Numbered from the stretch's first letter, positions 15,733 through 55,417 are shown. The stretch is DNA of 64,000 bases from an uncultured Prevotellaceae bacterium (GCA_946540735.1 CAMNIN010000005.1:43953-107952); one strand, 5' to 3'. Translations and numbers: made by a program. Notes: generated from the sequence alone by a model not told the origin.

Positions 15733-16848
15733 TTATGATTTTGCGTTAATGATGTTTTTCTTATGTATACCCCTGACCATCCGTTCGAGATGGCACTGGA
15801 GAAGATTCCCTTTTCCATCACGCAGGTGCATCCCATTTCCTTGACAATATCGCCACACGTTGCAGTCGGCGCACGGCCCCGTTTTCATCCAGGAATGGTC
15901 ACGGTAGGGCTGGAACTTGTTTTCCCATACTTCCAGGAAGTCATCATGATAGATGTTGCCCTGGGTGTAGTCGGAACGGATACTTGTGCAAGCAGATATG
16001 CCTCCGTCGGCGAGGATGCCCGCCACGGTGACACCCGCATGGCAAAAGAAGGCGTGTGGCCTCACGTCGAGTTCATACTCCCCCACGAAACCCTCACAGC
16101 CGTAGTTGACAGATATCTCTGGACAGTTCCGCTGCGTATCGAGGATAAAGTCGAGCAAGTCGTGGTAATGCTCATCAGAGAGGATCATCTGCGGGTCGGA
16201 GGCCGCCCTTCCAAGAGGGAAGACATCGATCAATCGCCAGTCCTCCACACCATGGGCGATCAGCCAATCGCGGAGCTGGGACAGCGTACCGATATTGCGC
16301 TCCGTAGCACACGTCACCACATCCCACACCACAAGAGGCTGGTTCCTCAACAAACCGATAGCTTGTTCGACCATGCCGAAGCTCCTCTCACTGCCCCGCA
16401 TCCAATTGTGGTCAGACTCCAGACCGTCAAGGCTCACCGCCACAGCATGCAACCCAGCGTCCACCAGCCGGCCGAAGCGCTCGGGGGTGAGGTGGAGGGC
16501 ATTGGTCACGATACCCCAAGGGAAACCCATTTCGTAGATTCTCCTCCCACACTCCTCCAGATCCTGTCGCATCAGCGGTTCACCCCCACTGATGGTGACG
16601 AAGACCTGATGAGGATCGTATTTCCTGCTGATACTTCTAAGCACACCAAGAAAATCCTCCACAGGCATGTCGGCGGCCTCTGCTTTCGTCTTGCAGTCGC
16701 TGCCACAATGCCGGCAACGGAGGTCACATCTGAGCGTACACTCCCAAAACACCTGCGTAAGCGGATGCCTTCTGACAATGTCGCTATGGAGTTTCCGTTC
16801 GATCTCCAATGCAACCTTCTTGGCCAAAGACAGCCCTTTGTATCTCAT
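15733..16848 (-). CDS. Radical SAM enzyme with a SPASM-type C-terminal Fe-S domain
   Basis: The 371-aa ORF has a CX3CX2C motif (CDLRCRHC). A GGEPL block is present. The Cys-rich C-terminus (FFCHAG...ISACTS...GPCADCNVWRYCQGNG) fits SPASM. Confidence 0.85.
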   Translation of the reverse strand: MRYKGLSLAKKVALEIERKLHSDIVRRHPLTQVFWECTLRCDLRCRHCGSDCKTKAEAADMPVEDFLGVLRSISRKYDPHQVFVTISGGEPLMRQDLEECGRRIYEMGFPWGIVTNALHLTPERFGRLVDAGLHAVAVSLDGLESDHNWMRGSERSFGMVEQAIGLLRNQPLVVWDVVTCATERNIGTLSQLRDWLIAHGVEDWRLIDVFPLGRAASDPQMILSDEHYHDLLDFILDTQRNCPEISVNYGCEGFVGEYELDVRPHAFFCHAGVTVAGILADGGISACTSIRSDYTQGNIYHDDFLEVWENKFQPYRDHSWMKTGPCADCNVWRYCQGNGMHLRDGKGNLLQCHLERMVRGIHKKNIINAKS

Positions 16849-16858
16849 CGGAGGTGCT

Positions 16859-17176
16859 TCATTTGGACTTTTTCTGACCTCTGAACCTGCGGTCCATCAT
16901 GTTAGGGCCACCATAGATTGTCTTGGTCCGCTCCAGATACTCGGCCCTTTTGATGCTGTCGGCTACGAAGTCCGCTCTGGCGTTGGCTCGCCCGATACTG
17001 TCCTGCCGCAACTGGTCACGCATCGCATTAGCACTTGCGACACTGTCGTTATAGGCTTGTTGTTGCCGCAGAATCGCTTTTCTCGAGAACCTGAGCGACT
17101 TGCATCCCGCAGTACCCATAAGGGTCATGAGGGCCGAAAGCAAAAGCATCAGCAATTTGTTATAACCTTGTCTCAT
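16859..17176 (-). CDS. Small lipoprotein (105 aa) encoded 10 nt upstream of the radical SAM gene
   Basis: It has a signal peptide plus lipobox (LMGTAGC). The mature part is Q/R/A-rich and helical, with a basic tail (RRFRGQKKSK). Confidence 0.6.
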   Translation of the reverse strand: MRQGYNKLLMLLLSALMTLMGTAGCKSLRFSRKAILRQQQAYNDSVASANAMRDQLRQDSIGRANARADFVADSIKRAEYLERTKTIYGGPNMMDRRFRGQKKSK

Positions 17177-17414: not shown

Positions 17415-18866
17415 ATGACAATTGCAACAAACAAAACCATGATGACGGCAGTCGCAGGTCTTCTGACTCTGGGACTGTCAGCGAGTGTTTTCAGTTCGGC
17501 AAACGCAGCAGAACCTATGGGAGGCCTTGTAGACCTGACCTATGCGGCCGAGAAAGCCGTGCCCGCTGTCGTTCACATCAAATACGTCCAAAATTCCAAG
17601 GTGACGACAATGGAAGTCGAAGACCCCTTCTCCGACTTTTTCAGCGACCCCTTCGGCTTTTTCGGCAATCCCAATAATGGCGGCAAGCAACGTCGTCAGG
17701 TACAGACCCCTAAGCGCGAAGCCAGCGGTTCAGGAGTGATCATCTCCACCGACGGTTATATCGTGACCAACAACCATGTGGTGGAGGGAGCCGACGAGCT
17801 CACCGTGACGCTGAACGACAACCGTGAATTCTCCGCCCGCATCATCGGCACCGACAAGAGTTCCGACCTTGCCCTGATCAAGATCGACGGCAAGAACCTG
17901 CCCAGCCTGCCCATCGGCGACTCCGACAAATTGAAGGTAGGAGAATGGGTGATCGCCGTTGGCAACCCATTCAATCTCAACAGCACCGTGACCGCCGGCA
18001 TCGTTAGTGCCAAGGCCCGCTCACTCTACGCCAACGGTGTGGAATCTTTCATCCAGACCGACGCAGCGATTAACCAAGGCAACTCTGGAGGTGCATTGGT
18101 CAATACCCAGGGAGAACTGGTCGGCATCAATGCCATGCTCTATTCACAGACTGGCAGTTACAGCGGTTATGGATTTGCCATTCCCACCACAATCATGAAC
18201 AAGGTGGTGAGCGACCTGAAGAAATATGGCACCGTGCAGCGCGCCATGCTTGCCATCATGGGCCAGGACGTGCACAACTATATCGACAGCCAGAAAGACA
18301 AAGGCACGGAAGTTGACCTCGGCACCAACGACGGTGTCTATATCAGTAAGGTGGAAGATGGTGGCGCAGCTGCGGAGGCCGGCATTGAGGAAGGCGACGT
18401 CATTGTCGCTATCGACGGCAAGAAAGTCTCCAAGATGGCAGAGCTTCAGGAAATTGTAGCCTCCAAGCGTCCTGGCGACCAAGTGAAGATCACCTATCTG
18501 CACAAGAAAGCCAAGAAAGAGAAGACCGTGACGCTGAAGAATGCCCAAGGCAACACGGAAGTGATGAAGACAGCCGACCTCGACATCCTCGGTGCTAACT
18601 TCAAGGCCATCACCGACGAACAGAAGAAGCAGCTGAATATCAGCTATGGCGTGGAGATCACCAAGGTGAACAAAGGCAAGCTTCAGGAAGAAGGCCTCTC
18701 GAAGGGATTCATCATCCAGAAAATCAACGACGAGCCCATGAAGACGGTGGACGACATCCAGAAAGCCGTGAAGGAAGCCTCGATGAGCAAGGAGCCCGTG
18801 CTCTACATCCAAGGTATCTATCCCACCGGCAAGAAGAAATATTTCGCTGTGCCGTTGAAGGATTAA
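17415..18866 (+). CDS. htrA: Do/HtrA-family periplasmic serine endopeptidase with PDZ domains
   Basis: The 483-aa ORF has a signal peptide. Trypsin-like blocks are present (TNNHVV, DLALIKI, GNSGGALVN), followed by two PDZ-like regions. Confidence 0.9.
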   Translation: MTIATNKTMMTAVAGLLTLGLSASVFSSANAAEPMGGLVDLTYAAEKAVPAVVHIKYVQNSKVTTMEVEDPFSDFFSDPFGFFGNPNNGGKQRRQVQTPKREASGSGVIISTDGYIVTNNHVVEGADELTVTLNDNREFSARIIGTDKSSDLALIKIDGKNLPSLPIGDSDKLKVGEWVIAVGNPFNLNSTVTAGIVSAKARSLYANGVESFIQTDAAINQGNSGGALVNTQGELVGINAMLYSQTGSYSGYGFAIPTTIMNKVVSDLKKYGTVQRAMLAIMGQDVHNYIDSQKDKGTEVDLGTNDGVYISKVEDGGAAAEAGIEEGDVIVAIDGKKVSKMAELQEIVASKRPGDQVKITYLHKKAKKEKTVTLKNAQGNTEVMKTADLDILGANFKAITDEQKKQLNISYGVEITKVNKGKLQEEGLSKGFIIQKINDEPMKTVDDIQKAVKEASMSKEPVLYIQGIYPTGKKKYFAVPLKD

Positions 18867-18973
18867 AGACATCGCAGCCACCCCCTCATTGAAGGCTCTG
18901 TGGGGCAGGATCGCAAAAACAGGCAAATGCGCAAATATTTGCGCATTTGTTTGTTTTTTTGCCGAAAAGGTCG

Positions 18974-18981
18974 TACTTTTG
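18974..18981 (+). promoter_or_regulatory. -7 promoter box (TACTTTTG) upstream of rpoD
   Basis: It matches TAnnTTTG 23 nt upstream of the ATG at 19004. Confidence 0.5.
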
Positions 18982-19003
18982 CATTCACTTAGACTTTTGC
19001 CAC

Positions 19004-19867
19004 ATGAGACAACTGAAAATCACGCAATCGATCACAAATCGAGAGAGCGCATCGCTCGACAAGTATCTTCAGGAAATCGGCCGCGAGGAACTCATCTCGG
19101 TAGAGGAAGAAGTGGAGTTAGCCCAGCGCATCCGCAGGGGTGACCGCAAAGCCTTGGAGAAGCTTACCCGCGCCAACCTCCGTTTCGTGGTCTCTGTGGC
19201 GAAGCAATACCAGAACCACGGTCTGAGCCTTCCCGACCTGATCAATGAGGGCAACCTGGGTCTGATCAAGGCAGCGGAGAAATTCGATGAGACCAGAGGT
19301 TTCAAATTCATCTCCTATGCCGTGTGGTGGATCCGGCAGAGCATCCTCCAAGCCATCGCTGAGCAGAGCCGCATCGTGAGACTGCCGCTCAACCAAGTCG
19401 GATCGGTCAACAAGATCAACAAAGTGCTCAACCAGTTTGAGCAGGAGCATGAGCGCCGTCCGAGCCTCGACGAGCTGGCCGCTTCTGTCGACTTGCCTGA
19501 AGACAAGATCGAAGACGCACTGAAGGTGAACACCCGCCACATCTCCGTCGATGCTCCCTTCGTGGATGGGGAGGAGAACAGCCTGCTCGACATCCTGCCC
19601 AACACCGACTCTCCCATGGCCGACAACGAACTCGTGATGGAGTCGCTCCGCAATGAGATCAACCGTGCCCTGCTCACCCTCAACGAGCGTGAGCGCCGCA
19701 TCATCGAAGCCTTCTTCGGCATCAACCAACCAGAGATGACCCTGGAGGAGATCGGCGAGAAGTTTGGCCTCACGCGGGAGCGAGTGCGCCAGATCAAGGA
19801 GAAAGCCATCCGCCGTCTGCGTCATAACACCAAAAACAAGTTGCTCAAGTCATATCTTGGCCAATAA
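19004..19867 (+). CDS. rpoD: Primary RNA polymerase sigma factor (Bacteroidetes-type sigma-A)
   Basis: The internal start [28 protein letters not shown] is typical of the 287-aa Bacteroidetes RpoD. Regions 2-4 are present ([58 protein letters not shown]). Confidence 0.95.
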
Positions 19868-19916
19868 ATGCCATTAAGACCTTATTTTGAGGTATAAAGA
19901 TTATCAAACATATCCC

Positions 19917-20489
19917 ATGAGGAAAATCATATTCGCAACAACATTGATTGCCTTGATGCTGCATGTGCTGCCAGTGTCGGGCAAGATGCGCTGCACACCT
20001 GTCTATATCTTCGGCGTATCCGCCTCATTCAACGATTCCATCGTCTATTTCACTGAAATCCAAGTGCTCGACAGTGCATGGATTGACGAGAAGAGCGATT
20101 TCCTGGTGAAACGCAGCGAATACTCGATGCAACTGCGTGATCATTTCAAATCCCTCAGCAATTCTTCCCGCACCTGTCTGGTGGCTTTCGCTACCTCAGA
20201 AAAGGATATTCTGAAGAAATATGCGAAAATGCGCTCACAATTCGGCGACAACAAGAAAAAACATTCCCGCTCGTATGACATCCGGACTGTAGACGCCGAC
20301 GAGTTCAGATTTCAGTCTTTGGCTCCCGACGACCTTACCGAAGCCGTGACAGAAACGAGCAAGAAAGCCGTCAAGCGAGCCAAGAAGACGAAAGAGAAGA
20401 TTTCACAGGGCGTCATCAAAGAAGGGAAAAAGCGCAGCTCCAGCGATGAGGAGAGCGACGTTCCCCCATCAATGCCCCCACGCCATTAA
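19917..20489 (+). CDS. Hypothetical secreted protein with a basic/acidic disordered tail
   Basis: I use the internal start MRKIIFATTLIALMLHVLPVSG, which is a signal peptide. I recognise no domain. It lies 56 nt upstream of the HprK-like gene. Confidence 0.45.
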   Translation: MRKIIFATTLIALMLHVLPVSGKMRCTPVYIFGVSASFNDSIVYFTEIQVLDSAWIDEKSDFLVKRSEYSMQLRDHFKSLSNSSRTCLVAFATSEKDILKKYAKMRSQFGDNKKKHSRSYDIRTVDADEFRFQSLAPDDLTEAVTETSKKAVKRAKKTKEKISQGVIKEGKKRSSSDEESDVPPSMPPRH

Positions 20490-20545
20490 TGCAAACGGCA
20501 TTCGCGAATTGACAGAACCCATCCAAACCACAAAACAACATCACA

Positions 20546-21445
20546 ATGAACGAAACGAGGTATTTCGAGATCGGCGAGCTCTTCATCAAGATCACTTTCG
20601 TCGATAACAAATACAACAACATGGGTATGCTCACCTCATTCTTCCCCTTCATGGTGAGTGAGAAGCCCGACGATGAGCTTATACTCGACATCACGGTGGA
20701 CGACACGCTGAAACCCATAGAGAAGAGCCGACGCGACCGCATACGCGATTTTGAGTCTGGCAACGGCAATATCATCGTCGACCTGATAGAGGGTGGAGGC
20801 TACCAGTTTATCTTCAAGGACCCCCGCGGCGCTGAATGCGGCATGTTTCAGATCGACAAAAGCTGCAAATATGTGAAGGCTGCCCTCAACGGCACTTTTG
20901 ACATGCGCAAGTTTGGTCTCCAATCCACCATGATGCTGTGCTACGCCATCGCCGGCTCATTCAAGCACACGGTCATGATCCATGCCTCGCTCGTGCGTCA
21001 CAACGGCTATGGCTACGCTTTTCATGCCGTGAGCGGCACTGGCAAGTCAACCCAGGTGAGCAACTGGCTTCGCTATATCCCCAACTGCGATTTGATGAAC
21101 GACGACAACCCAGTAATCCGTGTGATCGACGGCAAGGCCTATATTTACGGTTCACCTTGGAGCGGCAAGACCACTTGCTACAGGAAAATCAAAGCTCCTC
21201 TCGGTGCGCTGACCCGCATCGACCGTGACGACCACAACTGGGTGGAGAAATTGTCACCCATTCAGGGTTTCACCTCTGTTCTCCCATCATGCAGTTCGCT
21301 GAAATGGGACATTCCTGTCTACCGCAACGTGTGCGACACTGTCACCAAGATCGTGGAAAACGTCGGTACCTATATCCTGCACTGCCTGCCCGACAGGGAA
21401 GCTGCTGAGGTGTGTCACGCCGGCATCGCCGTGAAGGAGGCGTAA
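20546..21445 (+). CDS. HPr-kinase C-terminal-domain-like P-loop protein (putative peptide/protein kinase)
   Basis: The 299-aa ORF contains IHASLVRHNGYGYAFHAVSGTGKSTQVSNWL...MNDDNPVI...YGSPWSGK. This follows the HprK/PEPCK-fold pattern (hHa..v...g.g.l..G.SG.GKS ... DD). Confidence 0.6.
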   Translation: MNETRYFEIGELFIKITFVDNKYNNMGMLTSFFPFMVSEKPDDELILDITVDDTLKPIEKSRRDRIRDFESGNGNIIVDLIEGGGYQFIFKDPRGAECGMFQIDKSCKYVKAALNGTFDMRKFGLQSTMMLCYAIAGSFKHTVMIHASLVRHNGYGYAFHAVSGTGKSTQVSNWLRYIPNCDLMNDDNPVIRVIDGKAYIYGSPWSGKTTCYRKIKAPLGALTRIDRDDHNWVEKLSPIQGFTSVLPSCSSLKWDIPVYRNVCDTVTKIVENVGTYILHCLPDREAAEVCHAGIAVKEA

Positions 21446-21462
21446 CTTAAGCTATCCAGACC

Positions 21463-22068
21463 ATGCTCAACCGCAACAACAGTTTTTTCAAGTGGCTCCA
21501 CACTCATGACGGTGGCCAGAAGGTGATTCGACAACGAGGTACGAAGAACATCCCGCTTGAGAACCGCCTCTTCTTCCCCGTCATCGTGGAATACATCAAA
21601 GACGGACACACCGTGACCATCAACCTCCGAGGCAACAGCATGCGTCCCTTCCTGGAATCGGAACGCGACCGCGCCATGCTGACCCGCCCAGAACATCTGC
21701 GCGTCGGCGACCCCGTCTTGGCTGAGATAGAACCGGGGCATTTCGTGCTTCACCGTATCCGCAAGATGGAAGGAGACAACGTGACACTGATGGGTGATGG
21801 CAACCTCAACTGCGAATATTGCAAGGTGGAGGATTTCCGAGCCGGAGTGATCGGTTTCTACCGCAAGGGACGCAACACCATCGACCGCACAGACGGCATG
21901 AAATGGAAAGTGTACTCCTGGTTTTGGACGCACCTGCGACCCTTCCGCCGCTACCTGCTTGCCGCATACCGTTACATCTGGCTCAACCTGTTTCCTCTGA
22001 AATATCCCAAATACGCCAACGAGATACAGTTAGACCAACCCACAGCCTATAAGATCAAGAAACAATAA
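21463..22068 (+). CDS. SipW/Sec11-type (S26B-like, Ser/His) signal-peptidase-family protein
   Basis: The 201-aa ORF has the blocks GNSMRPF (Ser box), VLHRI (His box, compare SipW VTHRI) and MGDGN (compare SipW KGDNN). It has an amphipathic, aromatic C-terminal tail. Confidence 0.65.
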   Translation: MLNRNNSFFKWLHTHDGGQKVIRQRGTKNIPLENRLFFPVIVEYIKDGHTVTINLRGNSMRPFLESERDRAMLTRPEHLRVGDPVLAEIEPGHFVLHRIRKMEGDNVTLMGDGNLNCEYCKVEDFRAGVIGFYRKGRNTIDRTDGMKWKVYSWFWTHLRPFRRYLLAAYRYIWLNLFPLKYPKYANEIQLDQPTAYKIKKQ

Positions 22069-22086
22069 AACCATCATTTCCAAATT

Positions 22087-22374
22087 ATGAAAGCAAAAAA
22101 AGGATTCAACCTGCGTGAGATCTGCGGTGAGCAGATCATCGTAGCAGAAGGTAGAGAGAACATTGATTTCACTAATATCATCAGCATGAACGAATCATCG
22201 GCTCTGTTGTGGAGAAGCGTTCAGGACAAAGAGTTCACCGTCGACGACTTGGCAGACATCCTCGTCGAAAACTACATGATCGATGAGAACACCCCACTCG
22301 ACCGCGAGCGCGCCCTGAAAGACTCACAGGCCATGCTTGATAAATGGATCGAGGCTGGCATCGTCGAAGAGTAG
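22087..22374 (+). CDS. PqqD-family protein (RRE-like peptide-binding domain)
   Basis: The 95-aa ORF shows the PqqD pattern: MNESSALLWRSV..EFTVDDLADILVENY....ALKDSQAMLDKWIEAGIVE. Confidence 0.65.
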   Translation: MKAKKGFNLREICGEQIIVAEGRENIDFTNIISMNESSALLWRSVQDKEFTVDDLADILVENYMIDENTPLDRERALKDSQAMLDKWIEAGIVEE

Positions 22375-49094: not shown

Positions 49095-49952
49095 ATGGTA
49101 AATAAATCTCTTTCAAATTCCACATGGGCTGGCAGTATCTCATGCCAGCGCGTCAATTATACCACCAGAGTTGATTCTTCGAAGTTGAAGTCACCCGCCA
49201 ATAATTATGTTTACAGTCTTTTCGAAAAAGGCAAGGCCCGCATCAAATACAACAAAACCGAGATCGATGTTTGCGCAGGCGATCTTCTCATTTTTCCACC
49301 TTATATTAAACCCTGCCTCACCTGGAAAAGTGAAGAATACCAGGCTTTGTGCATGATTGTGAACGCCTCTTTCGTCTATAATTGTCCATTATCCCGGAAT
49401 GTTTTCCAGTCAGTCACTTTCTCTCTGATTCATGATACCGACCCCGTTTTACAGCTTACCCGTCAAGAGAAAGAAAAATTCAGATTGACCATGAGCATGA
49501 TTCTCTATCATCTGAAAGAAGAGCACACCTATACCATTGAGGCGTTGTATTCTCTTTACGGACTTTTTCTGGCCGATCTGATGTCAGTAATCAACAAGAA
49601 GAAATCGGAGAGTTTCAACAAGCATTATTACCAGATTTTCATTGATTTCAACAAATTGCTGCGCACTCATTTCAGATACCATCACGAAATCTCGTTCTAC
49701 GCAGACCAGTTGAAAATTTCAAGTCGCTATCTCTCCTTGGTGACCAAGCAAATCGCACATACCACGGTATCGACATATATCAACCGCCTGCTGATGCTTG
49801 AAGCCTGCTGGCTCTTGAAGAACACGGACTACAGCATTCAGAAAATCAGCGATACTCTGCACTTCTCAGACCAGGCCTCGTTCTCGAAATTCTTCAAACG
49901 ATTGAACGGCAGCAATCCGCTGTTGTATCGTCGGGAGAATGAAGTACTCTGA
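49095..49952 (+). CDS. AraC-family transcriptional regulator
   Basis: The real start MVNKSLSNS is at 49095. The C-terminal double HTH is FYADQLKISSRYLSLVTKQ...IQKISDTLHFSDQASFSKFFKR. The 539-aa track ORF is an artefactual upstream extension across two minus-strand genes. Confidence 0.8.
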   Translation: MVNKSLSNSTWAGSISCQRVNYTTRVDSSKLKSPANNYVYSLFEKGKARIKYNKTEIDVCAGDLLIFPPYIKPCLTWKSEEYQALCMIVNASFVYNCPLSRNVFQSVTFSLIHDTDPVLQLTRQEKEKFRLTMSMILYHLKEEHTYTIEALYSLYGLFLADLMSVINKKKSESFNKHYYQIFIDFNKLLRTHFRYHHEISFYADQLKISSRYLSLVTKQIAHTTVSTYINRLLMLEACWLLKNTDYSIQKISDTLHFSDQASFSKFFKRLNGSNPLLYRRENEVL

Positions 49953-49959
49953 GCCAAAG

Positions 49960-50547
49960 TCAGATCATCCCTGCAATATTCTCCAGCAGCTCCTTTGTCG
50001 ATATATTCATACCCAAAGCTCTCAAGCGTTTACAAATGTCACAGGCCTGGGCTACGGTTTTCATTCTGAAGTTGGCTGTCATGGCAGCCAAAGCCTCCAG
50101 TTCTGTAGCAAACACATGATCCTCGGTATAAGGCGTTCTGGAGTTGCGAAGTTTATAGGAGATTTCCCAATATCCCTTCAACTCATCGCCAAGGTCGACC
50201 CATTCTTTATCAATGCTTCTCACCACTCCCACTCCAGGAATACAGGCGATGGCAGAGGTATCGGTGACCCACACTCTGTCGCCGACAGAGAATCTTGCTT
50301 TTGGTTCGACGTCAGGGTCATCCTCTTTTTGGTCAAGAAGGCACTGCTTCTCATTGTTGAAAAATCCATTGAGCACGGAGCAGTTTCCTCCTTCAAGTGC
50401 TTGCAACTCTTCTCTGAGCTGAATGATTTCCTCGTCCGAAAAATCATGTCTGAGAAATCCATGCAGAAGCAACTCCTTGTCGAGCCTGGCCTCAAGGTTC
50501 ATGTCTTTGACCGAATTTTCATTCTCTAATTCAAATATCTGGTTCAT
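49960..50547 (-). CDS. Hypothetical cytoplasmic protein
   Basis: The ORF is 195 aa from MNQIFELENEN. I recognise no domain or signal peptide. Confidence 0.4.
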   Translation of the reverse strand: MNQIFELENENSVKDMNLEARLDKELLLHGFLRHDFSDEEIIQLREELQALEGGNCSVLNGFFNNEKQCLLDQKEDDPDVEPKARFSVGDRVWVTDTSAIACIPGVGVVRSIDKEWVDLGDELKGYWEISYKLRNSRTPYTEDHVFATELEALAAMTANFRMKTVAQACDICKRLRALGMNISTKELLENIAGMI

Positions 50548-50728
50548 CTTTCCTGATCGTTTTTTCTTTGCAAACTTAATGAAAAAAAACCACATACGCT
50601 TTGTTTTCCTATAAAAAAAGTGAAAGATGGCATTAAAAAGACCTTTTCACTTTTTTTCCAAATAAAATTTGCATGGTTTACCATAAATAATTACTTTTGC
50701 AGAAAGATCCGCAAATCAAACAATCATC

Positions 50729-51550
50729 ATGTCAACAATCGACCAATACCTTAAAAGCAACAACACTCAAGAGCGGGAATATTGTCTATACTGGCTGACG
50801 GCCTTTGGCATCCAGTCTGTGGTCGATCTCAAACCTTCCGACGACCTATTCCCGATTATCAGCCGACACATCGAAGGCGAAATCGACATCAAACGGACGA
50901 AGCAAGAAATCCATCGTTTCTACGACCATTCCAAACAGGGCAGCGGTGATCATCATATTCATCGTGGTGAGGAAGCCGATCTTGTCTCCTCACGAATCGT
51001 GGAGATTTTTTTATCAAAAGATTTCGACCTCTCGGTGCAAGGATTCAGCAACGTTCACCGCCAAATGTTCCATGGCATCTATCACCACTCCGGCCAATGG
51101 CGTGAGCGTCCTTTCAGCAAGAAGGAATGGGTGCTGGGCAATTCATCTGTACTCTACCCCGATGCCAGTCTGATCGAAGACTTCCTCAACCACCTGTTTG
51201 AGCAAGAGAAGAGCATCGACTACTCCCGGCTGTCTGAGAAGCACAAACTGATGAGCTACAGCATCTTTATCTCCAAGTTGTTTATGATCAATGCTTTCCA
51301 GTACGCAAACAGTCGAGCTGCTTTCGTCTACGGCATCAAATACCTGCTCACTCAGGGGTACCATCTTCGCAACACCACTTTTACCAAGGAAGCCTGGTAT
51401 TTCCGCAATGCCATCATCCGCGCATTCTACACCAACATGCATCAGGGCATCTATCCTACAACAACCTTCATGGAGATGTTTTTGGGCAATCTGCTCAACG
51501 ACGAGGACAATGAACTGAGAAACCACCGCATGGTGATCAAGGGAGAATAG
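50729..51550 (+). CDS. Fic-fold protein with a degenerate Fic motif and a VbhA-like N-terminal region
   Basis: The 273-aa ORF has Fic core helices (VHRQMFHGIYHHSGQWRE). Where the HxFx(D/E)GNGRxxR motif should sit it has NAFQYANSRAAF. The N-terminus resembles VbhA-type helices (LKPSDD...HIEGEIDIKRTKQEI). Confidence 0.55.
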   Translation: MSTIDQYLKSNNTQEREYCLYWLTAFGIQSVVDLKPSDDLFPIISRHIEGEIDIKRTKQEIHRFYDHSKQGSGDHHIHRGEEADLVSSRIVEIFLSKDFDLSVQGFSNVHRQMFHGIYHHSGQWRERPFSKKEWVLGNSSVLYPDASLIEDFLNHLFEQEKSIDYSRLSEKHKLMSYSIFISKLFMINAFQYANSRAAFVYGIKYLLTQGYHLRNTTFTKEAWYFRNAIIRAFYTNMHQGIYPTTTFMEMFLGNLLNDEDNELRNHRMVIKGE

Positions 51551-51553
51551 CCT

Positions 51554-52294
51554 TCATCTTCGCACAGTTTCCACCAATCCATATTGCGCCCAGTTGCCAA
51601 GCAACTTGGCGCAATCTTTTTTTGCTACAGCCTCCTCTACTTCATACACCTCCCGGATGGCCTTCACCATGTCCGGCAAGGTGAAACACTCATGGTCGAT
51701 ACCATCCCACACTGCCTTAGCAGCCTCATTGAAAGCAATCAGATGGTGCATGTCAACGCTCTTCCTGACCGTGTCGACGAGAACGACCCGGTTACCATGG
51801 ATGGTGTCAAACCTACAATGAGGTCTAACCCGAAAAGACTTGGCCAGGTCCACTTGCTGACTGGCTTTTCCTCTTTGGCCTCCCCCAGACTGCAAACCCA
51901 CCATGCAAGCAACAATATGCGATAAAACCGTGTGCTCCACATTCTTGTTATGATCACCCTTCAGCGTCACCTCCTGTCCCCGTATCTCCACGATACGATG
52001 CATGACGTAGTGCCCGGTATCAATCTCTGCCAGCACCACGTCACCAACCTTAACCTTATCCTTTGCACGTAGAGTAACTATGTCGGTGTTGTCTTGGATT
52101 GTGGGCAGCATGCTCCGCCCCTTAGGAACCATTGAAACCTCATACCCACGAAGCAAATAGGGTTTCATCGAAGCGAAGAAACCTTCATTGTCGATTTTAA
52201 CAACCTTGCAGCTACCGGATTCCTGACAACGCTCACAACTTGTTGTAAACAACAACAGCAACCATCCAATGATGTAAAAAAAACACCTTTTCAT
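51554..52294 (-). CDS. Fusion protein: SipW/Sec11-type (Ser/His) signal-peptidase-like domain plus C-terminal PqqD-like (RRE) domain, with an N-terminal signal/lipobox
   Basis: The 246-aa ORF starts MKRCFFYIIGWLLLLFTTSC. Peptidase blocks are GRSMLPT, VMHRIV and KGDHN. The C-terminal approx. 90 aa (FNEAAKAVWDGIDHECFTLPDMVKAIREVYEV..AVAKKDCAKLLGNWAQYGLVE) parallels the stand-alone PqqD protein at 22087-22374. Confidence 0.65.
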   Translation of the reverse strand: MKRCFFYIIGWLLLLFTTSCERCQESGSCKVVKIDNEGFFASMKPYLLRGYEVSMVPKGRSMLPTIQDNTDIVTLRAKDKVKVGDVVLAEIDTGHYVMHRIVEIRGQEVTLKGDHNKNVEHTVLSHIVACMVGLQSGGGQRGKASQQVDLAKSFRVRPHCRFDTIHGNRVVLVDTVRKSVDMHHLIAFNEAAKAVWDGIDHECFTLPDMVKAIREVYEVEEAVAKKDCAKLLGNWAQYGLVETVRR

Positions 52295-52313
52295 CCTATC
52301 AAGTTTTAGCCCT

Positions 52314-52321
52314 CAAAGATA
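52314..52321 (-). promoter_or_regulatory. -7 promoter box (TATCTTTG) for the peptidase-PqqD fusion gene
   Basis: The reverse complement of caaagata matches TAnnTTTG 20 nt upstream of the ATG at 52294. Confidence 0.4.
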
Positions 52322-52383
52322 CAAAAATAAAAGGCAAGAAGAGAAAAAAGTAATTGAATTTCTACTTTGTCGGTAAAAATGCG

Positions 52384-52391
52384 TATTTTTG
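52384..52391 (+). promoter_or_regulatory. -7 promoter box (TATTTTTG) for the ATP-grasp gene
   Basis: It matches TAnnTTTG. The first in-frame ATG downstream is at 52474. Confidence 0.4.
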
Positions 52392-52473
52392 CACAATCTT
52401 TAATGAATGTTCAACAAAAGCCACTTTGCTGGCAATAAGATGGCTAAAGACTCAAAGCCAAAGACTTATAGAT

Positions 52474-53619
52474 ATGAGAGCTATAGACAAATTTTTAAAG
52501 AAAGTCGTCCTTGGGAGCGACAGACGGGTGCGTGACTTTTGCGAGAAGAAACCCTCACGTCTGAGATTCTACGAAAACAAGTACATGCCCTTGCAACTGT
52601 CATTTTTCAGATGGCACAACTATGCTATAGGAGACCATGTGCTCGGAGCCTTAAGAAAATCTACCGAAAAATACATACGCATCAATCTCACTCCAGAACA
52701 AATGGCCGACGTGAAATACACATCTAAGCTAAGAGATGATATCATCAAGTGCCGTTTGATATACAAGACCCATCCCACAGAGTATTTTTTGTATGGATAC
52801 GAGCATCTGGACTATTGGCAGCGTAAAGAATACCTCTCTGATAGCGACCGATGGCGGATTCTCCATGAGCGTTTCGGCAAAAAAGTGCATCGCGAACACG
52901 CCGACAAATGGTTCTTCTACCATCTGGCCCAACCCTATTTTCACCGGGAGGCCTGCAAAGTAGGAGAAGAAGCCAAGAAAGAAGATTTCCTTCGATTCGT
53001 TTCCCGTCACCATGATTTTTTCGTCAAACCCCTTGATGGATGTTTTGGACGTAACGCCTATCGATTGGAAGCAGACAGCGAGGAAAAAGCAGAAGAGATC
53101 TACCAAAAGCTGGTTTCAAACGGTGTGTGGATAGTAGAAGAACTGATCACACAATCCGAAGAATTCGCTGCCTGGAATGCATCGTCGGTCAACACCGTGA
53201 GAATCGCATCCTTCCTCACCGCTGAAGGAGTTCACCACAACATCGTCCCATTTTTCCGTGCCGGTCGAGTTGGATCCGTCGTCGACAACGCTTTAAGCGG
53301 CGGAATTATCGCCGGAGTAGACGAGAAGACCGGTGTCCTATGTTCGGATGGAATGGATGAGGAGGGCCGGCATTTCAACGCTCATCCCGACTCTGGAATC
53401 GTATTTGAGGGGTGGCAAGTACCAGACTGGCAGGAGTTATGCCGTCTGACCGAGGAAATACACCGCTCACTCCCTCCATATCACAGATACATCGCTTTTG
53501 ACTTTGCCCATACCGCAAAAGGATGGGTACTGGTGGAAGGAAACTGGGGACAACTCATCTTCAACCAATCAGGATGCCATCGTGGCGTCAGAAAAGAGTT
53601 TTTAAATTACATAAAATAA
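52474..53619 (+). CDS. ATP-grasp-fold ligase with a long N-terminal extension (putative peptide ligase)
   Basis: The ORF is 381 aa from MRAIDKFLKK. ATP-grasp blocks are FFVKPLDGCFGRNAY (Lys/Gly loop), WIVEELITQSEE, NTVRIASF and FDFAHTAKGWVLVEGNWGQ (Mg/ATP E-x-N). The track start at 52354 is a TTG upstream of the promoter box. Confidence 0.7.
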   Translation: MRAIDKFLKKVVLGSDRRVRDFCEKKPSRLRFYENKYMPLQLSFFRWHNYAIGDHVLGALRKSTEKYIRINLTPEQMADVKYTSKLRDDIIKCRLIYKTHPTEYFLYGYEHLDYWQRKEYLSDSDRWRILHERFGKKVHREHADKWFFYHLAQPYFHREACKVGEEAKKEDFLRFVSRHHDFFVKPLDGCFGRNAYRLEADSEEKAEEIYQKLVSNGVWIVEELITQSEEFAAWNASSVNTVRIASFLTAEGVHHNIVPFFRAGRVGSVVDNALSGGIIAGVDEKTGVLCSDGMDEEGRHFNAHPDSGIVFEGWQVPDWQELCRLTEEIHRSLPPYHRYIAFDFAHTAKGWVLVEGNWGQLIFNQSGCHRGVRKEFLNYIK

Positions 53620-53701
53620 GAATAAAGTTATCAAAAGACCTGCAACTTCCCCTATTCTGAATTTTTTTACACAATTTCTTTGGTAGTAACAAAAAAATGA
53701 C

Positions 53702-53709
53702 TAACTTTG
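53702..53709 (+). promoter_or_regulatory. -7 promoter box (TAACTTTG) for peptide gene 1
   Basis: It matches TAnnTTTG 47 nt upstream of the ATG at 53756. Confidence 0.5.
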
Positions 53710-53755
53710 TAGCGTTTTAAATAATTATATTATTAACCCTTTAAAAAAATCAGTT

Positions 53756-53887
53756 ATGAAAGCTATTTATTCAGAGCCGATGACAAAGGTTATGTCCCTG
53801 AACGTGAAGGCCGCTATCTGCGAGAAAGAGCGTACTGTTTCTGAGCCTGACAACACAGACAAGCAAGAGGACATGCCTCTGTTCTAA
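53756..53887 (+). CDS. 43-aa candidate precursor peptide, copy 1 (MKAIYSEPMTKVMSLNVKAAICEKERTVSEPDNTDKQEDMPLF)
   Basis: I found this ORF by hand because it is below the 60-aa track cut-off. It has its own -7 box and its own terminator. A near-identical inverted paralogue lies 469 nt downstream. It sits immediately downstream of the ATP-grasp gene. Confidence 0.6.
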   Translation: MKAIYSEPMTKVMSLNVKAAICEKERTVSEPDNTDKQEDMPLF

Positions 53888-53910
53888 TCCAATCGGACAA
53901 AGACAGAACA

Positions 53911-53937
53911 GCCAGACCAAACGGTCTGGCTTTTTTT
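53911..53937 (+). terminator. Rho-independent terminator of peptide gene 1
   Basis: The 8-bp GC-rich stem (gccagacc / ggtctggc) has an AAAC loop. A T7 tract follows. Confidence 0.75.
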
Positions 53938-54306
53938 ATCTTTAGTATTTTTCAATCAAGCAAGAAATCAAATTATCAAAGTTGGATCCACTTTAAAAAT
54001 CTTTTTCATCACATTTTGATGTCCGCAAGGTTCCTCTCTCCTTCGGAGGAGCGGAGTCTCTTGTAATGCAAATGTATTCATCCGACTTTTTAAAATAGAT
54101 TAAAGTATTACTTTAGAAAATACATGTAAAGTCTTACGTGAATTACAATTATATCAACCTTTACGGAATATTTAAAAAATTCCACTCTTATGGACATATC
54201 AAAACGAAGATATAGAAATCCGCTGACCCTGAAGGAAACCATTTAAGGTCATCCCTAAGGAGCAAAGTGCTGACACGATCATCAATGATTGCAAAGAGAA
54301 TACAAC

Positions 54307-54332
54307 AAAAAAGCCAGACCGTTTGGTCTGGC
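54307..54332 (-). terminator. Rho-independent terminator of peptide gene 2
   Basis: It is the same gccagacc/ggtctggc hairpin in inverted orientation. A T6 tract follows on the minus strand. Confidence 0.75.
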
Positions 54333-54355
54333 TGTTCCATTTCTGTCCGATTGGA

Positions 54356-54487
54356 TTAGAACAGAGGCATGTCCTCTTGCTTGTCTGTGTTGTCAGGCTC
54401 AGAAACAGTACGCTCTTTCTCGCAGATAGCGGCCTTCACATTCAAGAACATAACCTTAGTCATCGGCTCTGAATAAATCTTCTTCAT
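54356..54487 (-). CDS. 43-aa candidate precursor peptide, copy 2 (MKKIYSEPMTKVMFLNVKAAICEKERTVSEPDNTDKQEDMPLF)
   Basis: I found this ORF by hand. It differs from copy 1 at 2 residues (A3K, S14F) and at 8 nt, all within the first 48 nt. The last 81 coding nt plus stop plus 12 nt of 3' UTR are identical. It has its own -7 box and terminator. Confidence 0.6.
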   Translation of the reverse strand: MKKIYSEPMTKVMFLNVKAAICEKERTVSEPDNTDKQEDMPLF

Positions 54488-54547: not shown

Positions 54548-54555
54548 CAAAGATA
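54548..54555 (-). promoter_or_regulatory. -7 promoter box (TATCTTTG) for peptide gene 2
   Basis: The reverse complement of caaagata matches TAnnTTTG about 60 nt upstream of the ATG at 54487. Confidence 0.5.
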
Positions 54556-54907: not shown

Positions 54908-55417
54908 CTATTTCGGATAGCCGGTGACCTCATTTTCAGCGGCCCTATCGAGAGAGTTCTCTTCCTCCAGCATGGTGTATGATGCCGCATGATCGTTGAG
55001 GAAGATCGAGTTTAGCGTATATTCCAATGATGTCAGCGTGGCGAGTCGTTGTTTGGGTCTAAGCTGGCACTCCCAGATAGTGATGCAATGCCATCCCAAT
55101 GCAGCAAGAGCAATAAGGTCGCGCTTGTCACGTGCGCGGTTGCGATCGATTTTCTGCTGCCAAAAGTCAGTATTGGTCTTTGGCATGCGGAAGGCGGCAC
55201 ACCCCTCATGCCCATGCCAGAAACACCCATTGACGAAGATACACGTGCGGTATTTTCTCATCACGATATCAGGATGCCCCGGGAGGCGTTTATGGAAAAG
55301 CCGATACCTGAATCCTCGTGAGAAGAGGAATCGGCGGACCAGCATCTCAGGCTTGGTGTTTTTCGACCTGATGGCCGCCATATTGTTATGACGCTGAATT
55401 TTATCGAGCGTATCCAT
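54908..55417 (-). CDS. vsr: Very-short-patch-repair (Vsr) DNA mismatch endonuclease
   Basis: The 169-aa ORF aligns block by block with E. coli Vsr: RSKNTKPE, LPGHPDIVMRKYRTCIFVNGCFWHGH, KTNTDFWQQKIDRNRARD and GWHCITIWEC. Confidence 0.9.
   Translation of the reverse strand: MDTLDKIQRHNNMAAIRSKNTKPEMLVRRFLFSRGFRYRLFHKRLPGHPDIVMRKYRTCIFVNGCFWHGHEGCAAFRMPKTNTDFWQQKIDRNRARDKRDLIALAALGWHCITIWECQLRPKQRLATLTSLEYTLNSIFLNDHAASYTMLEEENSLDRAAENEVTGYPK

What the first reader, a model, noticed from the sequence alone, without database searches (positions are those of the whole stretch)
51554..54487. Candidate undescribed RiPP-type locus: ATP-grasp ligase, SipW-like peptidase/PqqD fusion and twin 43-aa peptide genes
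Seen in the sequence: a divergent gene pair at 51554-52294 (-) and 52474-53619 (+) is followed by two 43-aa ORFs at 53756-53887 (+) and 54356-54487 (-). Both ORFs are too short for the supplied ORF track. Each has its own TAnnTTTG box and its own hairpin plus T-tract terminator. The 381-aa protein carries the ATP-grasp blocks FFVKPLDGCFGRNAY, WIVEELITQSEE and FDFAHTAKGWVLVEGNWGQ. The 246-aa protein joins a signal-peptidase-like domain (GRSMLPT, HRIV, KGDHN) to a PqqD-like C-terminal domain. Established knowledge: PqqD-like domains are the leader-peptide recognition elements of many RiPP pathways. ATP-grasp ligases either cyclise peptides (graspetides/microviridins) or extend them (RimK-type). 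S24/S26-type proteases can remove leaders. Inference: these parts form a complete set of precursor, recognition domain, ligase and protease. The ligase has an N-terminal extension of about 170 aa. It looks closer to what I recall as the sugar-transfer-associated ATP-grasp clade than to MdnB/MdnC-type graspetide ligases. I know of no characterised RiPP class with this enzyme combination. No transporter or immunity gene is adjacent.
Basis: partly seen in the sequence, partly recalled or inferred. Interest (0 to 1): 0.9.

Follow-up and report, generated by a model that had tools for sequence, protein, structure and literature searches.

The report
Twin peptide genes with fused leader-peptidase
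A rumen Prevotella locus encodes two near-identical 43-residue peptides and a fused peptide-recognition/protease protein that probably trims them. It is a Bacteroidota variant of a peptide-processing system first described in 2026, and the neighbouring ATP-grasp ligase is probably not part of it.

Summary

The link between the peptides and the S24-PqqD protein is well supported. Every related locus with enough flank has 2-3 such peptide genes. In most they lie directly upstream of S24-PqqD on the same strand. The peptides have a conserved 22-residue leader with a lasso/LPP-type YxxP motif, Tyr 17 residues before an invariant Cys. The C-terminal core is hypervariable between genomes. Between paralogs in one genome the cores differ by 17 synonymous and 0 non-synonymous changes.

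The ATP-grasp is not a core part. About 8 of 13 orthologous lineages lack it. It occurs without S24-PqqD in L176, L002 and L003. In all, 77 of 79 homologue loci lack the peptides.

The closest known system is the LPP family of Bacillota (Popov et al. 2026), a SipW-like leader peptidase that depends on a recognition element (RRE). Here the two are fused and carry a predicted lipoprotein signal. No kinase, NTP-transferase or exporter is adjacent.

This is a new variant of a known kind. Interest is moderate.

The parts
53756..53887 (+). Precursor peptide gene, 'A-type' leader: MKAIYSEPMTKVMSLNVKAAIC (leader) followed by EKERTVSEPDNTDKQEDMPLF (core)
   Evidence: ORF. Homologues in 20 loci. Selection pattern. 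YxxP motif with Y5 at -17 from the invariant Cys22.
54356..54487 (-). Precursor peptide gene, 'K-type' leader (MKKIYSEP...F14). Its core is identical to that of the other copy.
   Evidence: The A-type/K-type leader pair recurs in other genomes (L001, L080, L088, L092, L094, L095).
53702..53709 (+). TAACTTTG, a Bacteroidetes-type -7 promoter box for the + strand peptide gene
   Evidence: The box and the 5' UTR are conserved in L001.
54548..54555 (-). TATCTTTG promoter box for the - strand peptide gene
53910..53938 (+). Intrinsic terminator of the + strand peptide gene: 9-bp stem, 4-nt loop, T7
54305..54333 (-). Intrinsic terminator of the - strand peptide gene
51554..52294 (-). Fused leader-peptidase/RRE protein, 246 aa. 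Residues 1-20 are a signal peptide with a lipobox-like ...TSC (52235-52294). Residues 58-125 are a SipW/Sec11-type S24/S26 domain (51920-52123) with S61, H99, D114 and E120. Residues 171-241 are the PqqD/RRE domain (51572-51784).
50729..51550 (+). Fic-like protein, 273 aa, convergent with S24-PqqD. The Fic motif is degenerate: INAFQYANSR in place of HxFx(D/E)GNxR. It is adjacent in all loci that carry the fusion. Its role is unknown.
52474..53619 (+). ATPgrasp_ST ligase with a helical N-terminal domain. It is a facultative resident of the locus, inserted between S24-PqqD and the peptide genes. It is probably not a core component.
20546..22374 (+). Separate, unfused paralogous module in the same window: a P-loop protein with weak HprK-related similarity, an S24-like peptidase and a PqqD protein

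Best explanation
The functional unit is the two precursor-peptide genes plus the fused S24/S26-PqqD protein. It is a Bacteroidota relative of the SpI/RRE leader-processing module of LPP RiPPs.

Each 43-aa precursor has a conserved 22-residue leader and a strain-specific core. The leader reads MK.IYSEPxTKVxxLNVxAxIC and alternates hydrophobic and polar residues, as a beta-strand would. The core is acidic, rich in Pro and Thr, about 21-24 residues long, and ends in P-(L/M)-F.

Inferred mechanism:
1. The PqqD/RRE domain binds the YxxP leader as an added strand.
2. It presents the leader/core junction, at or next to the invariant Cys22, to the fused SipW-type Ser61/His99 peptidase.
3. Cleavage releases the core.

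The fusion carries an N-terminal signal peptide with a lipobox-like Cys, so cleavage probably happens outside the cytoplasm. The export route of the peptide is unknown.

The ATP-grasp, which in some relatives comes with GT2, an acyltransferase and a PEA-transferase-like gene, is a facultative cassette lodged in this locus. At most it is an optional tailoring step.

Shown here: domain identities, gene conservation, the selection pattern, operon-like adjacency, the leader motif, and the facultative presence of the ATP-grasp. Inferred: binding, the cleavage site, cellular location and the biological role. The role may be a strain-specific signal or a competition peptide.
For: - Domains and fold. 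The profile search of solved structures gave the lasso RREs TfuB1 (E 2e-4) and TbiB1.
- Every related locus with enough flank has 2-3 peptide genes. In the 8 lineages without the ATP-grasp they are directly upstream of S24-PqqD and co-directional with it.
- The leader is conserved and the core is hypervariable between genomes. Within a genome the paralog cores are identical in protein, with 17 synonymous and 0 non-synonymous differences.
- Y5 and P8 lie at -17 and -14 from the conserved/variable boundary, the register reported for lasso leaders. The [Y/W]xxP motif is what lasso and LPP RREs bind.
- LppS, a SipW homologue with S29/H68/D93, cleaves its precursor only when the RRE LppB is present.
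- Bacteroidales loci L099, L100, L110, L131, L138 and L161 carry an HprK-like gene, S24, PqqD, NTP_transf_5 and a precursor beginning MKKMNKIYEAPKAEVIELNV. That leader is homologous to the window peptides. Their S24 is the closest unfused relative found of the window's S24 domain, 42% identical.
- S24-PqqD evolves fast, about 40% identity where the flanking UvrD is about 65% and the nucleotidyltransferase 85-95%.
Against: - There are no expression or biochemical data.
- All loci with the fused protein come from one Prevotella clade with conserved flanking synteny, so adjacency is partly inherited rather than independently selected.
- Topology conflict: the fusion looks exported. The peptides have no Sec-type signal; they have Lys or Arg inside the only hydrophobic stretch, with mean hydropathy of about 1.4-1.8. 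No transporter is nearby.
- The residue after YxxPx is Thr, not the hydrophobic residue of the published motif.
- No modifying enzyme is consistently present, so the product may be an unmodified cleaved peptide rather than a true RiPP.
- NCBIfam signal-peptidase scores are below their cut-offs.
Confidence: 0.55

Rival explanations
1. The ATP-grasp is the defining modification enzyme. It cross-links or extends the peptide, for example at Glu/Asp side chains or at the C-terminal Phe carboxylate. S24-PqqD then removes the leader. Together they form a four-part ATP-grasp RiPP pathway.
For: - The locus-associated ATP-grasps form one clade whose branching mirrors the trees of S24-PqqD and the Fic-like protein. 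This suggests long residence exactly between S24-PqqD and the peptide genes.
- The fold resembles RimK and LysX/ArgX, which ligate to protein C-termini. The graspetide ligase PsnB ranks 19th.
- The cores are rich in Glu, Asp, Ser and Thr.
- LPP clusters are also embedded among possible tailoring genes.
Against: - It is absent from about 8 of 13 lineages that keep the peptides and S24-PqqD.
- It is retained with GT2 where S24-PqqD is missing (L176).
- L002 and L003, members of the same clade, have no peptides nearby.
- 77 of 79 homologue loci lack the peptides.
- The peptides show no feature that separates loci with the ATP-grasp from loci without it.
- The family is PF14397, 'sugar-transfer associated'. 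In L084 the gene sits 26 nt downstream of a GT2 gene.
- An ATP-dependent enzyme must work in the cytoplasm, whereas S24-PqqD is predicted to be exported.
Confidence: 0.15
2. There is no functional link. The small peptides, S24-PqqD, the Fic-like protein and the ATP-grasp are independent genes kept side by side only by vertical inheritance in one Prevotella clade. S24-PqqD would then process some other exported substrate.
For: - The whole 15-kb region is syntenic across the clade: DHH, NTase, LMWPc, AraC, u211, Fic, S24-PqqD, peptides, Vsr, cysE-like, esterase, UvrD.
- In the window each peptide gene has its own promoter and terminator.
- The peptides lack an export signal, although the fusion looks exported.
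Against: - The peptides stay tightly next to S24-PqqD through rearrangements: orientation flips, 2 or 3 copies, a different upstream context in L082, and insertions.
- The leader motif is of the type that lasso-like RREs bind.
- The homologous leader is found in the unfused Bacteroidales clusters beside S24 and PqqD genes.
Confidence: 0.15
3. The peptides are matured in the cytoplasm by the unfused P-loop/S24/PqqD module 30 kb away (window 20546-22374). The lipoprotein fusion acts outside the cell on exported or foreign peptides of this family, for example as a pheromone-processing, sensing or quenching protease.
For: - A second, signal-less S24 + PqqD pair with an HprK-like P-loop protein lies in the same window.
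- The cores are strain-specific, and both paralogs in a genome are kept identical. This pattern is typical of pherotype-like systems (my own knowledge).
- The LPP paper shows that related RREs can cross-bind YxxP leaders.
Against: - The unfused module is near-universal in Bacteroidales, including genomes without these peptides.
- It is less similar to the fusion (34% identity) than the L099-type S24 is (42%).
- There is no direct evidence for export or uptake of the peptide.
Confidence: 0.1

Closest known systems
LPP (linear polyphosphorylated peptide) RiPP clusters of Bacillota: LppA precursor, LppB RRE, LppS SipW-like leader peptidase, LppK kinase, LppN NTP-transferase, LppD exporter (Popov et al., Nat Commun 2026, PMC13381572)
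   Same: - A SipW/archaeal-type Ser/His peptidase is paired with a lasso-like PqqD RRE.
- There are 1-3 precursor genes per locus.
- The N-terminal leader is conserved, carries a YxxP motif, and is followed by a hypervariable C-terminus.
- Neighbouring genes are of the glycan-biosynthesis type.
   Different: - The peptidase and RRE are fused into one protein that carries a predicted lipoprotein signal. LppS and LppB are separate, and LppS cleaved its precursor in a cell-free assay.
- No HprK-like kinase, NTP-transferase or MsbA-like exporter is at the locus.
- The precursors are only 42-46 aa.
- The extended LPP motif YxxPxVLxHQxIxFETxxS is absent.
- The phylum is Bacteroidota, whereas the paper states that LPPs are restricted to Bacillota.
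Lasso peptide pathways (A precursor, B1 RRE, B2 cysteine protease, C lactam synthetase)
   Same: - The RRE fold and sequence are closest to lasso B1 proteins: TfuB1 and TbiB1.
- The leader has Tyr and Pro at -17 and -14 from the putative core start.
- A Glu or Asp lies at core positions 7-9 in all variants.
   Different: - No B2 (transglutaminase-like) protease or Asn-synthetase-like cyclase was found among the neighbouring genes examined.
- There is no Thr at -2.
- The protease is a serine S24/S26 type.
- Acidic residues are so frequent in the core that a Glu or Asp at positions 7-9 is expected by chance.
SipW and TasA/TapA of Bacillus subtilis (a dedicated ER/archaeal-type signal peptidase)
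   Same: The catalytic motifs are of the same type (GxSMxPT, HR, GDxN). It is a dedicated peptidase encoded beside its small set of substrates, and it acts outside the cytoplasm.
   Different: The substrates here lack a Sec-type signal peptide. The enzyme has an added RRE domain. It has a lipobox rather than transmembrane anchors. Its scores are below the SipW and sigpep_I_arch cut-offs.
Graspetides/microviridins (MdnB/MdnC-type ATP-grasp RiPPs) and the RimK/LysX peptide-carboxylate ligases
   Same: An ATP-grasp gene lies next to short acidic peptide genes. The predicted fold is similar to RimK, LysX and PsnB.
   Different: The ligase belongs to PF14397 (ATPgrasp_ST) and has a helical N-terminal domain. 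It is dispensable for the locus. Its homologues mostly lie in polysaccharide clusters.
The conserved Bacteroidales operon of a secreted protein, a P-loop HprK-like protein, Peptidase_S24 and PqqD, beside rpoD and htrA. It was noticed as an 'RRE-containing protocluster' in bioRxiv 10.1101/2025.01.13.632881.
   Same: It has paralogous S24-like and PqqD proteins, and a copy is present in this same window (20546-22374).
   Different: Its genes are unfused and have no signal peptide on S24. It has a kinase-like partner and no twin YxxP peptide genes adjacent. It is near-universal rather than specific to one clade.

Membership tests
LPP RiPP family (Popov et al. 2026) | SipW-like (archaeal-type SpI) serine leader peptidase with a Ser/His/Asp catalytic set | tested here: met
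   Pfam Peptidase_S24 is above its cut-off. The best NCBIfam hits are sigpep_I_arch and SipW, below their cut-offs. S61, H99, D114 and E120 are invariant. The fold is LexA/S24-like.
LPP RiPP family (Popov et al. 2026) | Discrete lasso-like RRE (PqqD family) that presents the leader to the peptidase | tested here: inconclusive
   An RRE domain is present and lasso-like, but it is fused to the peptidase rather than discrete. The presenting function was not tested.
LPP RiPP family (Popov et al. 2026) | 1-3 precursors with a conserved N-terminal YxxP-containing leader and a variable C-terminus | tested here: met
   There are 2-3 genes per locus, each with YxxP at residues 5-8 and a hypervariable core. 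The extended LPP consensus YxxPxVLxHQxIxFETxxS is not present.
LPP RiPP family (Popov et al. 2026) | HprK-like kinase in the cluster (the primary modification is polyphosphorylation of core Ser3) | tested here: not met
   No such gene lies among the genes adjacent to the locus. The only HprK-like gene in the window is at 20546-21445, in a different operon. No core Ser is conserved at position 3.
LPP RiPP family (Popov et al. 2026) | NTP-transferase (LppN) and MsbA-like exporter (LppD) | tested here: not met
   tblastn with the PF14907 protein of L099 finds nothing in the window. No ABC exporter is among the neighbouring genes.
Lasso peptides | B2 transglutaminase-like protease and Asn-synthetase-like lasso cyclase | tested here: not met
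   Neither appears among the annotated neighbours of the window or of its orthologous loci. The rest of the genome could not be searched.
Lasso peptides | Leader motif YxxPxL at -17 to -12 and Thr at -2 | tested here: inconclusive
   Y and P are at -17 and -14 relative to the invariant Cys22. The -12 residue is Thr, not Leu. The -2 residue is Ala, Ser or Pro, not Thr.
Graspetides (ATP-grasp RiPPs) | MdnB/MdnC-type ATP-grasp ligase obligatorily linked to its precursor genes | tested here: not met
   The ligase is PF14397, not a graspetide family. It is absent from about 8 lineages that have the peptides, and 77 of 79 ligase loci lack the peptides.
Graspetides (ATP-grasp RiPPs) | omega-ester or omega-amide cross-links in the core | not testable with these tools
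   This needs mass spectrometry of the co-expressed peptide.
Pfam PqqD (PF05402), the RRE fold | Score above the gathering threshold, and a winged-helix plus three-strand sheet fold | tested here: met
   40.7 bits against 23.4. Foldseek TM-score 0.74 (normalised to the target) to TbiB1 bound to its leader.
Pfam ATPgrasp_ST (PF14397) | Score above the gathering threshold | tested here: met
   120.3 bits against 31.4. The ATP-grasp fold is confirmed.
SipW / archaeal-type signal peptidase I (NCBIfam NF046067, TIGR02228) | Score above the curated cut-off | tested here: not met
   23 bits against 190, and 30.8 against 51.85. It is a relative, not a member.
Fic/Doc enzymes (the 273-aa neighbour) | Catalytic motif HxFx(D/E)GNGRxxR | tested here: not met
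   The motif reads INAFQYANSR. The His is replaced by Asn (Tyr in one member) across the 273-aa subfamily, while relatives about 40% identical keep HIFGEGNTR. The Pfam Fic score is below its cut-off (22 against 24).

The most novel reading that the evidence does not exclude
The fusion is an extracytoplasmic, lipid-anchored RRE-guided leader peptidase. This would be the first RiPP recognition element working outside the cytoplasm. It matures exported, strain-specific acidic peptides that act as a pherotype-like signal or competition factor in rumen Prevotella. In some strains the ATPgrasp_ST/GT2/acyltransferase cassette lodged in the locus tailors the peptide before export.
Probability: 0.15. 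Interest if true: 0.8.

Novelty: new variant of a known kind. Interest (0 to 1): 0.5.

Why it matters
Signal-peptidase-like leader removal that depends on a recognition element (RRE) was reported only in 2026, and only for Bacillota. This locus and its relatives show three things.
- The same logic exists in Bacteroidota, including complete kinase/NTP-transferase clusters in rumen Bacteroidales.
- A near-universal unfused operon lies beside rpoD in Bacteroidales.
- There is a stripped-down fused form in which recognition and cleavage sit in one protein that is apparently exported.

The fused form is a minimal two-component system of peptide plus processing enzyme. That makes it easy to test. 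It also raises the question of how a leader peptide without an export signal meets a periplasmic RRE.

The cores are strain-specific, and both paralogs in a genome are kept identical. This hints at a cell-to-cell recognition role in a dominant rumen genus.

The analysis also corrects an attractive but unsupported annotation as an 'ATP-grasp RiPP'.

Tried and rejected
- Searched for peptide homologues next to all 79 ATP-grasp homologue loci with phmmer, a peptide HMM and regular expressions. Only L001 and L004 have them.
- Looked for other small-ORF families beside the closest ATP-grasp paralogs (L002, L003, L005-L011). None is consistent, apart from a single 65-aa YxxP ORF in L005.
- Tested whether the small ORFs could be a known RNA. 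No Rfam match at E <= 1.
- Tested whether the 370 nt between the twin genes hold something conserved. They are not conserved in L001.
- Considered that the peptides are tiny lipoproteins or Sec substrates, with an N-terminal signal ending at Cys22. Rejected as unlikely: the only hydrophobic stretch is 10 residues long, contains Lys/Arg or Asn, and has Ile or Val at -1.
- Considered a Fic toxin with small antitoxins. Rejected: the Fic motif is degenerate and the peptides lack an inhibitory motif.
- Tested for positive selection in the core. dN/dS is mostly 0.16-0.33, so it is not shown. Core DNA does diverge much faster than leader DNA.
- Tried to firm up the HprK-like call for the P-loop partner of the unfused module with a profile search of solved structures. 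Only generic P-loop hits came back, and the NCBIfam hits stay weak.
- Pfam and NCBIfam give nothing for the peptides or for the 211-aa upstream protein.

Full report
**Observation**

The 246-aa product of 51554-52294(-) matches Pfam PqqD at residues 171-241 (E 3e-10) and Peptidase_S24 at residues 58-125 (E 2e-6). Both scores are above the gathering thresholds. Its best NCBIfam matches are the archaeal-type signal peptidase I and SipW models, both below their cut-offs. An AlphaFold2 model built on seven homologues (pLDDT 77.5) was compared with solved structures. The N-terminal domain matches the LexA/lambda-repressor C-terminal fold. The C-terminal domain matches PqqD and the lasso RRE TbiB1 bound to its leader. 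A profile search of solved structures gives the lasso RRE TfuB1 as the best hit (E 2e-4). S61 (GRSMLPT), H99 (MHRIV), D114 and E120 (KGDHNKNVE) are invariant.

The 381-aa product of 52474-53619(+) matches PF14397 ATPgrasp_ST (E 1e-34). Its model (pLDDT 89) has an all-helical N-terminal domain of about 157 residues followed by an ATP-grasp fold. The nearest solved structures are DcsG, RimK, LysX/ArgX and Ddl, and the graspetide ligase PsnB ranks 19th.

The two 43-aa ORFs lie in a 183-nt inverted repeat that is 93% matched. Each has a TAnnTTTG box, at 53702(+) and 54548(-). Each has a 9-bp hairpin followed by a T-tract. No Rfam family matches.

**Are the small ORFs genes?**

I found 30 copies in 20 loci, giving 23 distinct peptides. 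All share three parts:
- a conserved N-terminal half, MK.IY[SF][EQ]PxTK[VA]xx[LMV][NM][VL]xxx[IV]C;
- a hypervariable acidic middle rich in Pro and Thr;
- a conserved end, x-P-[LM]-F followed by the stop codon.

Within one genome the 2-3 paralogs differ in the leader. An 'A-type' leader (MKAIYSEP) and a 'K-type' leader (MKK.Y[FS].P) recur across genomes. The cores of paralogs in one genome are identical in protein. Counting non-redundant paralog pairs, the core differences are 17 synonymous and 0 non-synonymous. Closely related genomes such as L092 and L094 differ by four core residues, and both paralogs in each genome carry the same changes. This shows concerted evolution together with purifying selection.

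Core DNA diverges much faster than leader DNA. Between L092 and L094 the leader has 0 differences in 63 nt, while the core has pS of about 0.4 and pN of 0.15. dN/dS is below 1 in most pairs, so positive selection is not demonstrated. Public gene callers already call these ORFs, without a name. The 370 nt between the twin genes are not conserved in the closest relative, L001.

**What travels with what?**

I anchored searches on three different genes.

*Anchor 1, the ATP-grasp.* There are 79 genome loci. Only L001 (77% identity) and L004 (45%) carry S24-PqqD and the peptides. The others lie in co-directional polysaccharide-type clusters or in tandem ATP-grasp arrays.

*Anchor 2, the Fic-like neighbour and S24-PqqD homologues*. 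Loci L086/87, L088/89, L170-172, L174 and L175 have the Fic-like gene, S24-PqqD and 2-3 peptide genes, and no ATP-grasp. L082 and L092-L094 also lack it. In all of these the peptide genes lie 50-270 nt upstream of S24-PqqD on the same strand, an operon-like arrangement. The ATP-grasp is present in the window, L001, L090, L080 and the L004/L084 lineage. In the L004/L084 lineage it comes with GT2, Acyl_transf_3 and a PEA-transferase-like sulfatase-family gene. In L176 the Fic-like gene is followed directly by GT2 and the ATP-grasp, and S24-PqqD is missing.

*Anchor 3, phylogeny.* The locus-associated ATP-grasps form one clade together with L002 and L003, which have no peptides nearby. Its branching mirrors the trees of S24-PqqD and the Fic-like protein. 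The ATP-grasp is therefore probably an old resident of this site that was lost several times. It is not an obligatory partner.

The whole region is syntenic in this Prevotella clade, in the order DHH, NTase, LMWPc, AraC, u211, Fic, S24-PqqD, [ATP-grasp], peptides, [Transgly_assoc], Vsr, cysE-like, esterase, UvrD. This weakens any argument from adjacency alone. Even so, the peptide/S24-PqqD pair survives orientation flips, copy-number changes, insertions and a different upstream context in L082.

**The known relative**

A literature search found Popov et al., Nat Commun 2026 (PMC13381572). That paper describes the LPP family in Bacillota. [quoted passage not shown] There are 1-3 precursors with a conserved N-terminal YxxP-containing leader and hypervariable C-termini. 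LppS cleaves only in the presence of LppB. The clusters are embedded in polysaccharide loci. The authors state that the family is restricted to Bacillota.

Lasso leaders carry YxxPxL at -17 to -12 (PMC10368454). In the window peptides Y5 and P8 lie at -17 and -14 from the invariant Cys22, which marks the boundary between the conserved and variable parts.

**Bacteroidales intermediates**

A metagenome scan with the S24-PqqD profile returned mostly loci in which an S24-like gene of about 160 aa and a PqqD gene of about 89 aa are separate and adjacent. They lie in a conserved operon: HtrA, RpoD, a secreted protein, a P-loop protein with weak HprK-related hits, S24, PqqD. A copy of this operon is in the window itself at 17415-22374. 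A preprint had noticed it as an 'RRE-containing protocluster'.

A subset of loci (L099, L100, L110, L131, L138, L161) also carries NTP_transf_5 (PF14907, E 5e-36) and a 40-53-aa ORF beginning MKKMNKIYEAPKAEVIELNV.K.FM. This is an LPP-like gene set. Its precursor leader is homologous to the window peptides. Its S24 is the closest unfused relative found of the window's S24 domain, at 42% identity against 34% for the window's own unfused copy. The window locus therefore looks like a reduced, fused derivative of a Bacteroidales LPP-like system.

**What is different here**

- The peptidase and the RRE are fused.
- All members of the fused family begin with a signal peptide. The close family has an invariant Cys after the hydrophobic stretch in a lipobox-like context (LTGC, LAGC, LSSC, TTSC). 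More distant fusions have ordinary Sec-type signals. The unfused paralogs have none. I could not run SignalP, so the export call rests on these patterns.
- No kinase, NTP-transferase or exporter is at the locus.
- A Fic-like protein is always adjacent and convergent. Its catalytic motif is degenerate, NAFQYANSR in place of HxFxEGNxR, while relatives about 40% identical keep the canonical motif.
- An invariant Cys (KDC, residue 228) lies in the RRE helix of the fused family. The unfused paralogs have Ala or Ser there. It could pair with the peptide's Cys22, but that is speculation.

**Most likely mechanism**

The RRE domain binds the YxxP leader strand and presents the junction at Cys22 to the fused Ser61/His99 peptidase, which releases the acidic core of about 21 residues. 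The step is probably extracytoplasmic.

Unexplained:
- how a precursor without an export signal reaches an exported enzyme;
- whether any modification is installed;
- what the released peptide does.

The strain-specific cores, kept identical among paralogs in a genome, suggest a recognition or competition role. That is inference.

**The ATP-grasp**

The evidence does not exclude an optional tailoring role. The gene has been at this site for a long time. Its fold resembles RimK and LysX. LPP-type clusters sit among glycan genes. But the presence/absence data make it unlikely to be a defining component. Its family and its GT2 partner point to glycan-related chemistry.

**Verdict**

The locus is a new Bacteroidota variant of the recently described SpI/RRE leader-processing kind, not a new ATP-grasp RiPP class. 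Interest is moderate (0.5).

Noticed in passing
window 17415-22374 (+): A second, unfused SpI/RRE set lies in the same window: HtrA, RpoD, a secreted 200-aa protein, a P-loop protein with weak HprK_rel_A/ScmC hits (20546-21445), an S24-like peptidase (21463-22068) and PqqD (22087-22374). The same operon is conserved in about 70 Bacteroidales metagenome loci, including human gut. Its substrate is unknown.
   Followed up: partly
L099 4994-9217; also L100, L110, L131, L138, L161: These rumen Bacteroidales loci carry an LPP-like gene set: an HprK-like gene, S24, PqqD, NTP_transf_5 (PF14907) and a 40-53-aa precursor beginning MKKMNKIYEAPKAEVIELNV. The LPP family was reported as restricted to Bacillota.
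   Followed up: partly
L005 10906-11103 (-); L106 1166-1327; L122 6485-6679; L149 2579-2743; L159 239-436: Another family of small ORFs has a YxxP N-terminus (MKK.Y..P..[EV]...) and very acidic tails ending W(D/E)EE. The L005 copy sits beside four tandem ATP-grasp paralogs. The others lie 0.2-5 kb from unfused S24/PqqD genes.
   Followed up: no
window 50729-51550 (+): The Fic-like protein has lost the catalytic His (NAFQYANSR) and the C-terminal wHTH of its relatives, which are about 40% identical. It is about 60% conserved across the clade and lies next to S24-PqqD in every locus that has the fusion, often overlapping its 3' end. It is also present in L176, where the fusion is missing.
   Followed up: partly
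window 49960-50595 (-) and about 49100-49952 (+): A 211-aa protein with no family match and an AraC-type regulator are conserved immediately upstream of the Fic-like gene in nearly all related loci, including the outgroup L084. They evolve fast, at 44-55% identity. They might regulate or belong to the module.
   Followed up: no
L176 1669-4745: The Fic-like gene is followed directly by GT2 and ATPgrasp_ST, and S24-PqqD is deleted. This shows that the ATP-grasp/GT2 pair persists without the peptidase.
   Followed up: partly
L092 5321-5819 compared with L094 5370-5869: The leader DNA is identical (0 differences in 63 nt) while the core DNA has pS of about 0.4. Both paralogs in each genome share the same four core substitutions. 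This pattern suggests recombinational exchange of core alleles plus gene conversion.
   Followed up: partly
window 15733-17176 (-): A TIGR04133 radical SAM/SPASM protein ('rSAM_w_lipo', 514 bits) lies next to a 105-aa lipoprotein. This is a known but uncharacterised Bacteroidetes gene pair. It sits just upstream of the HtrA-RpoD-S24-PqqD operon.
   Followed up: no
window 51611-51613 (residue C228 of S24-PqqD): An invariant Cys in the 'KDC' motif of the RRE helix is found in the fused, exported family. Unfused paralogs have Ala or Ser at this position. It could pair with the peptide's invariant Cys22.
   Followed up: no
window 54908-55417 (-): A Vsr very-short-patch-repair endonuclease gene (141 bits) is conserved next to the locus. 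I did not look for a partner Dcm methyltransferase.
   Followed up: no
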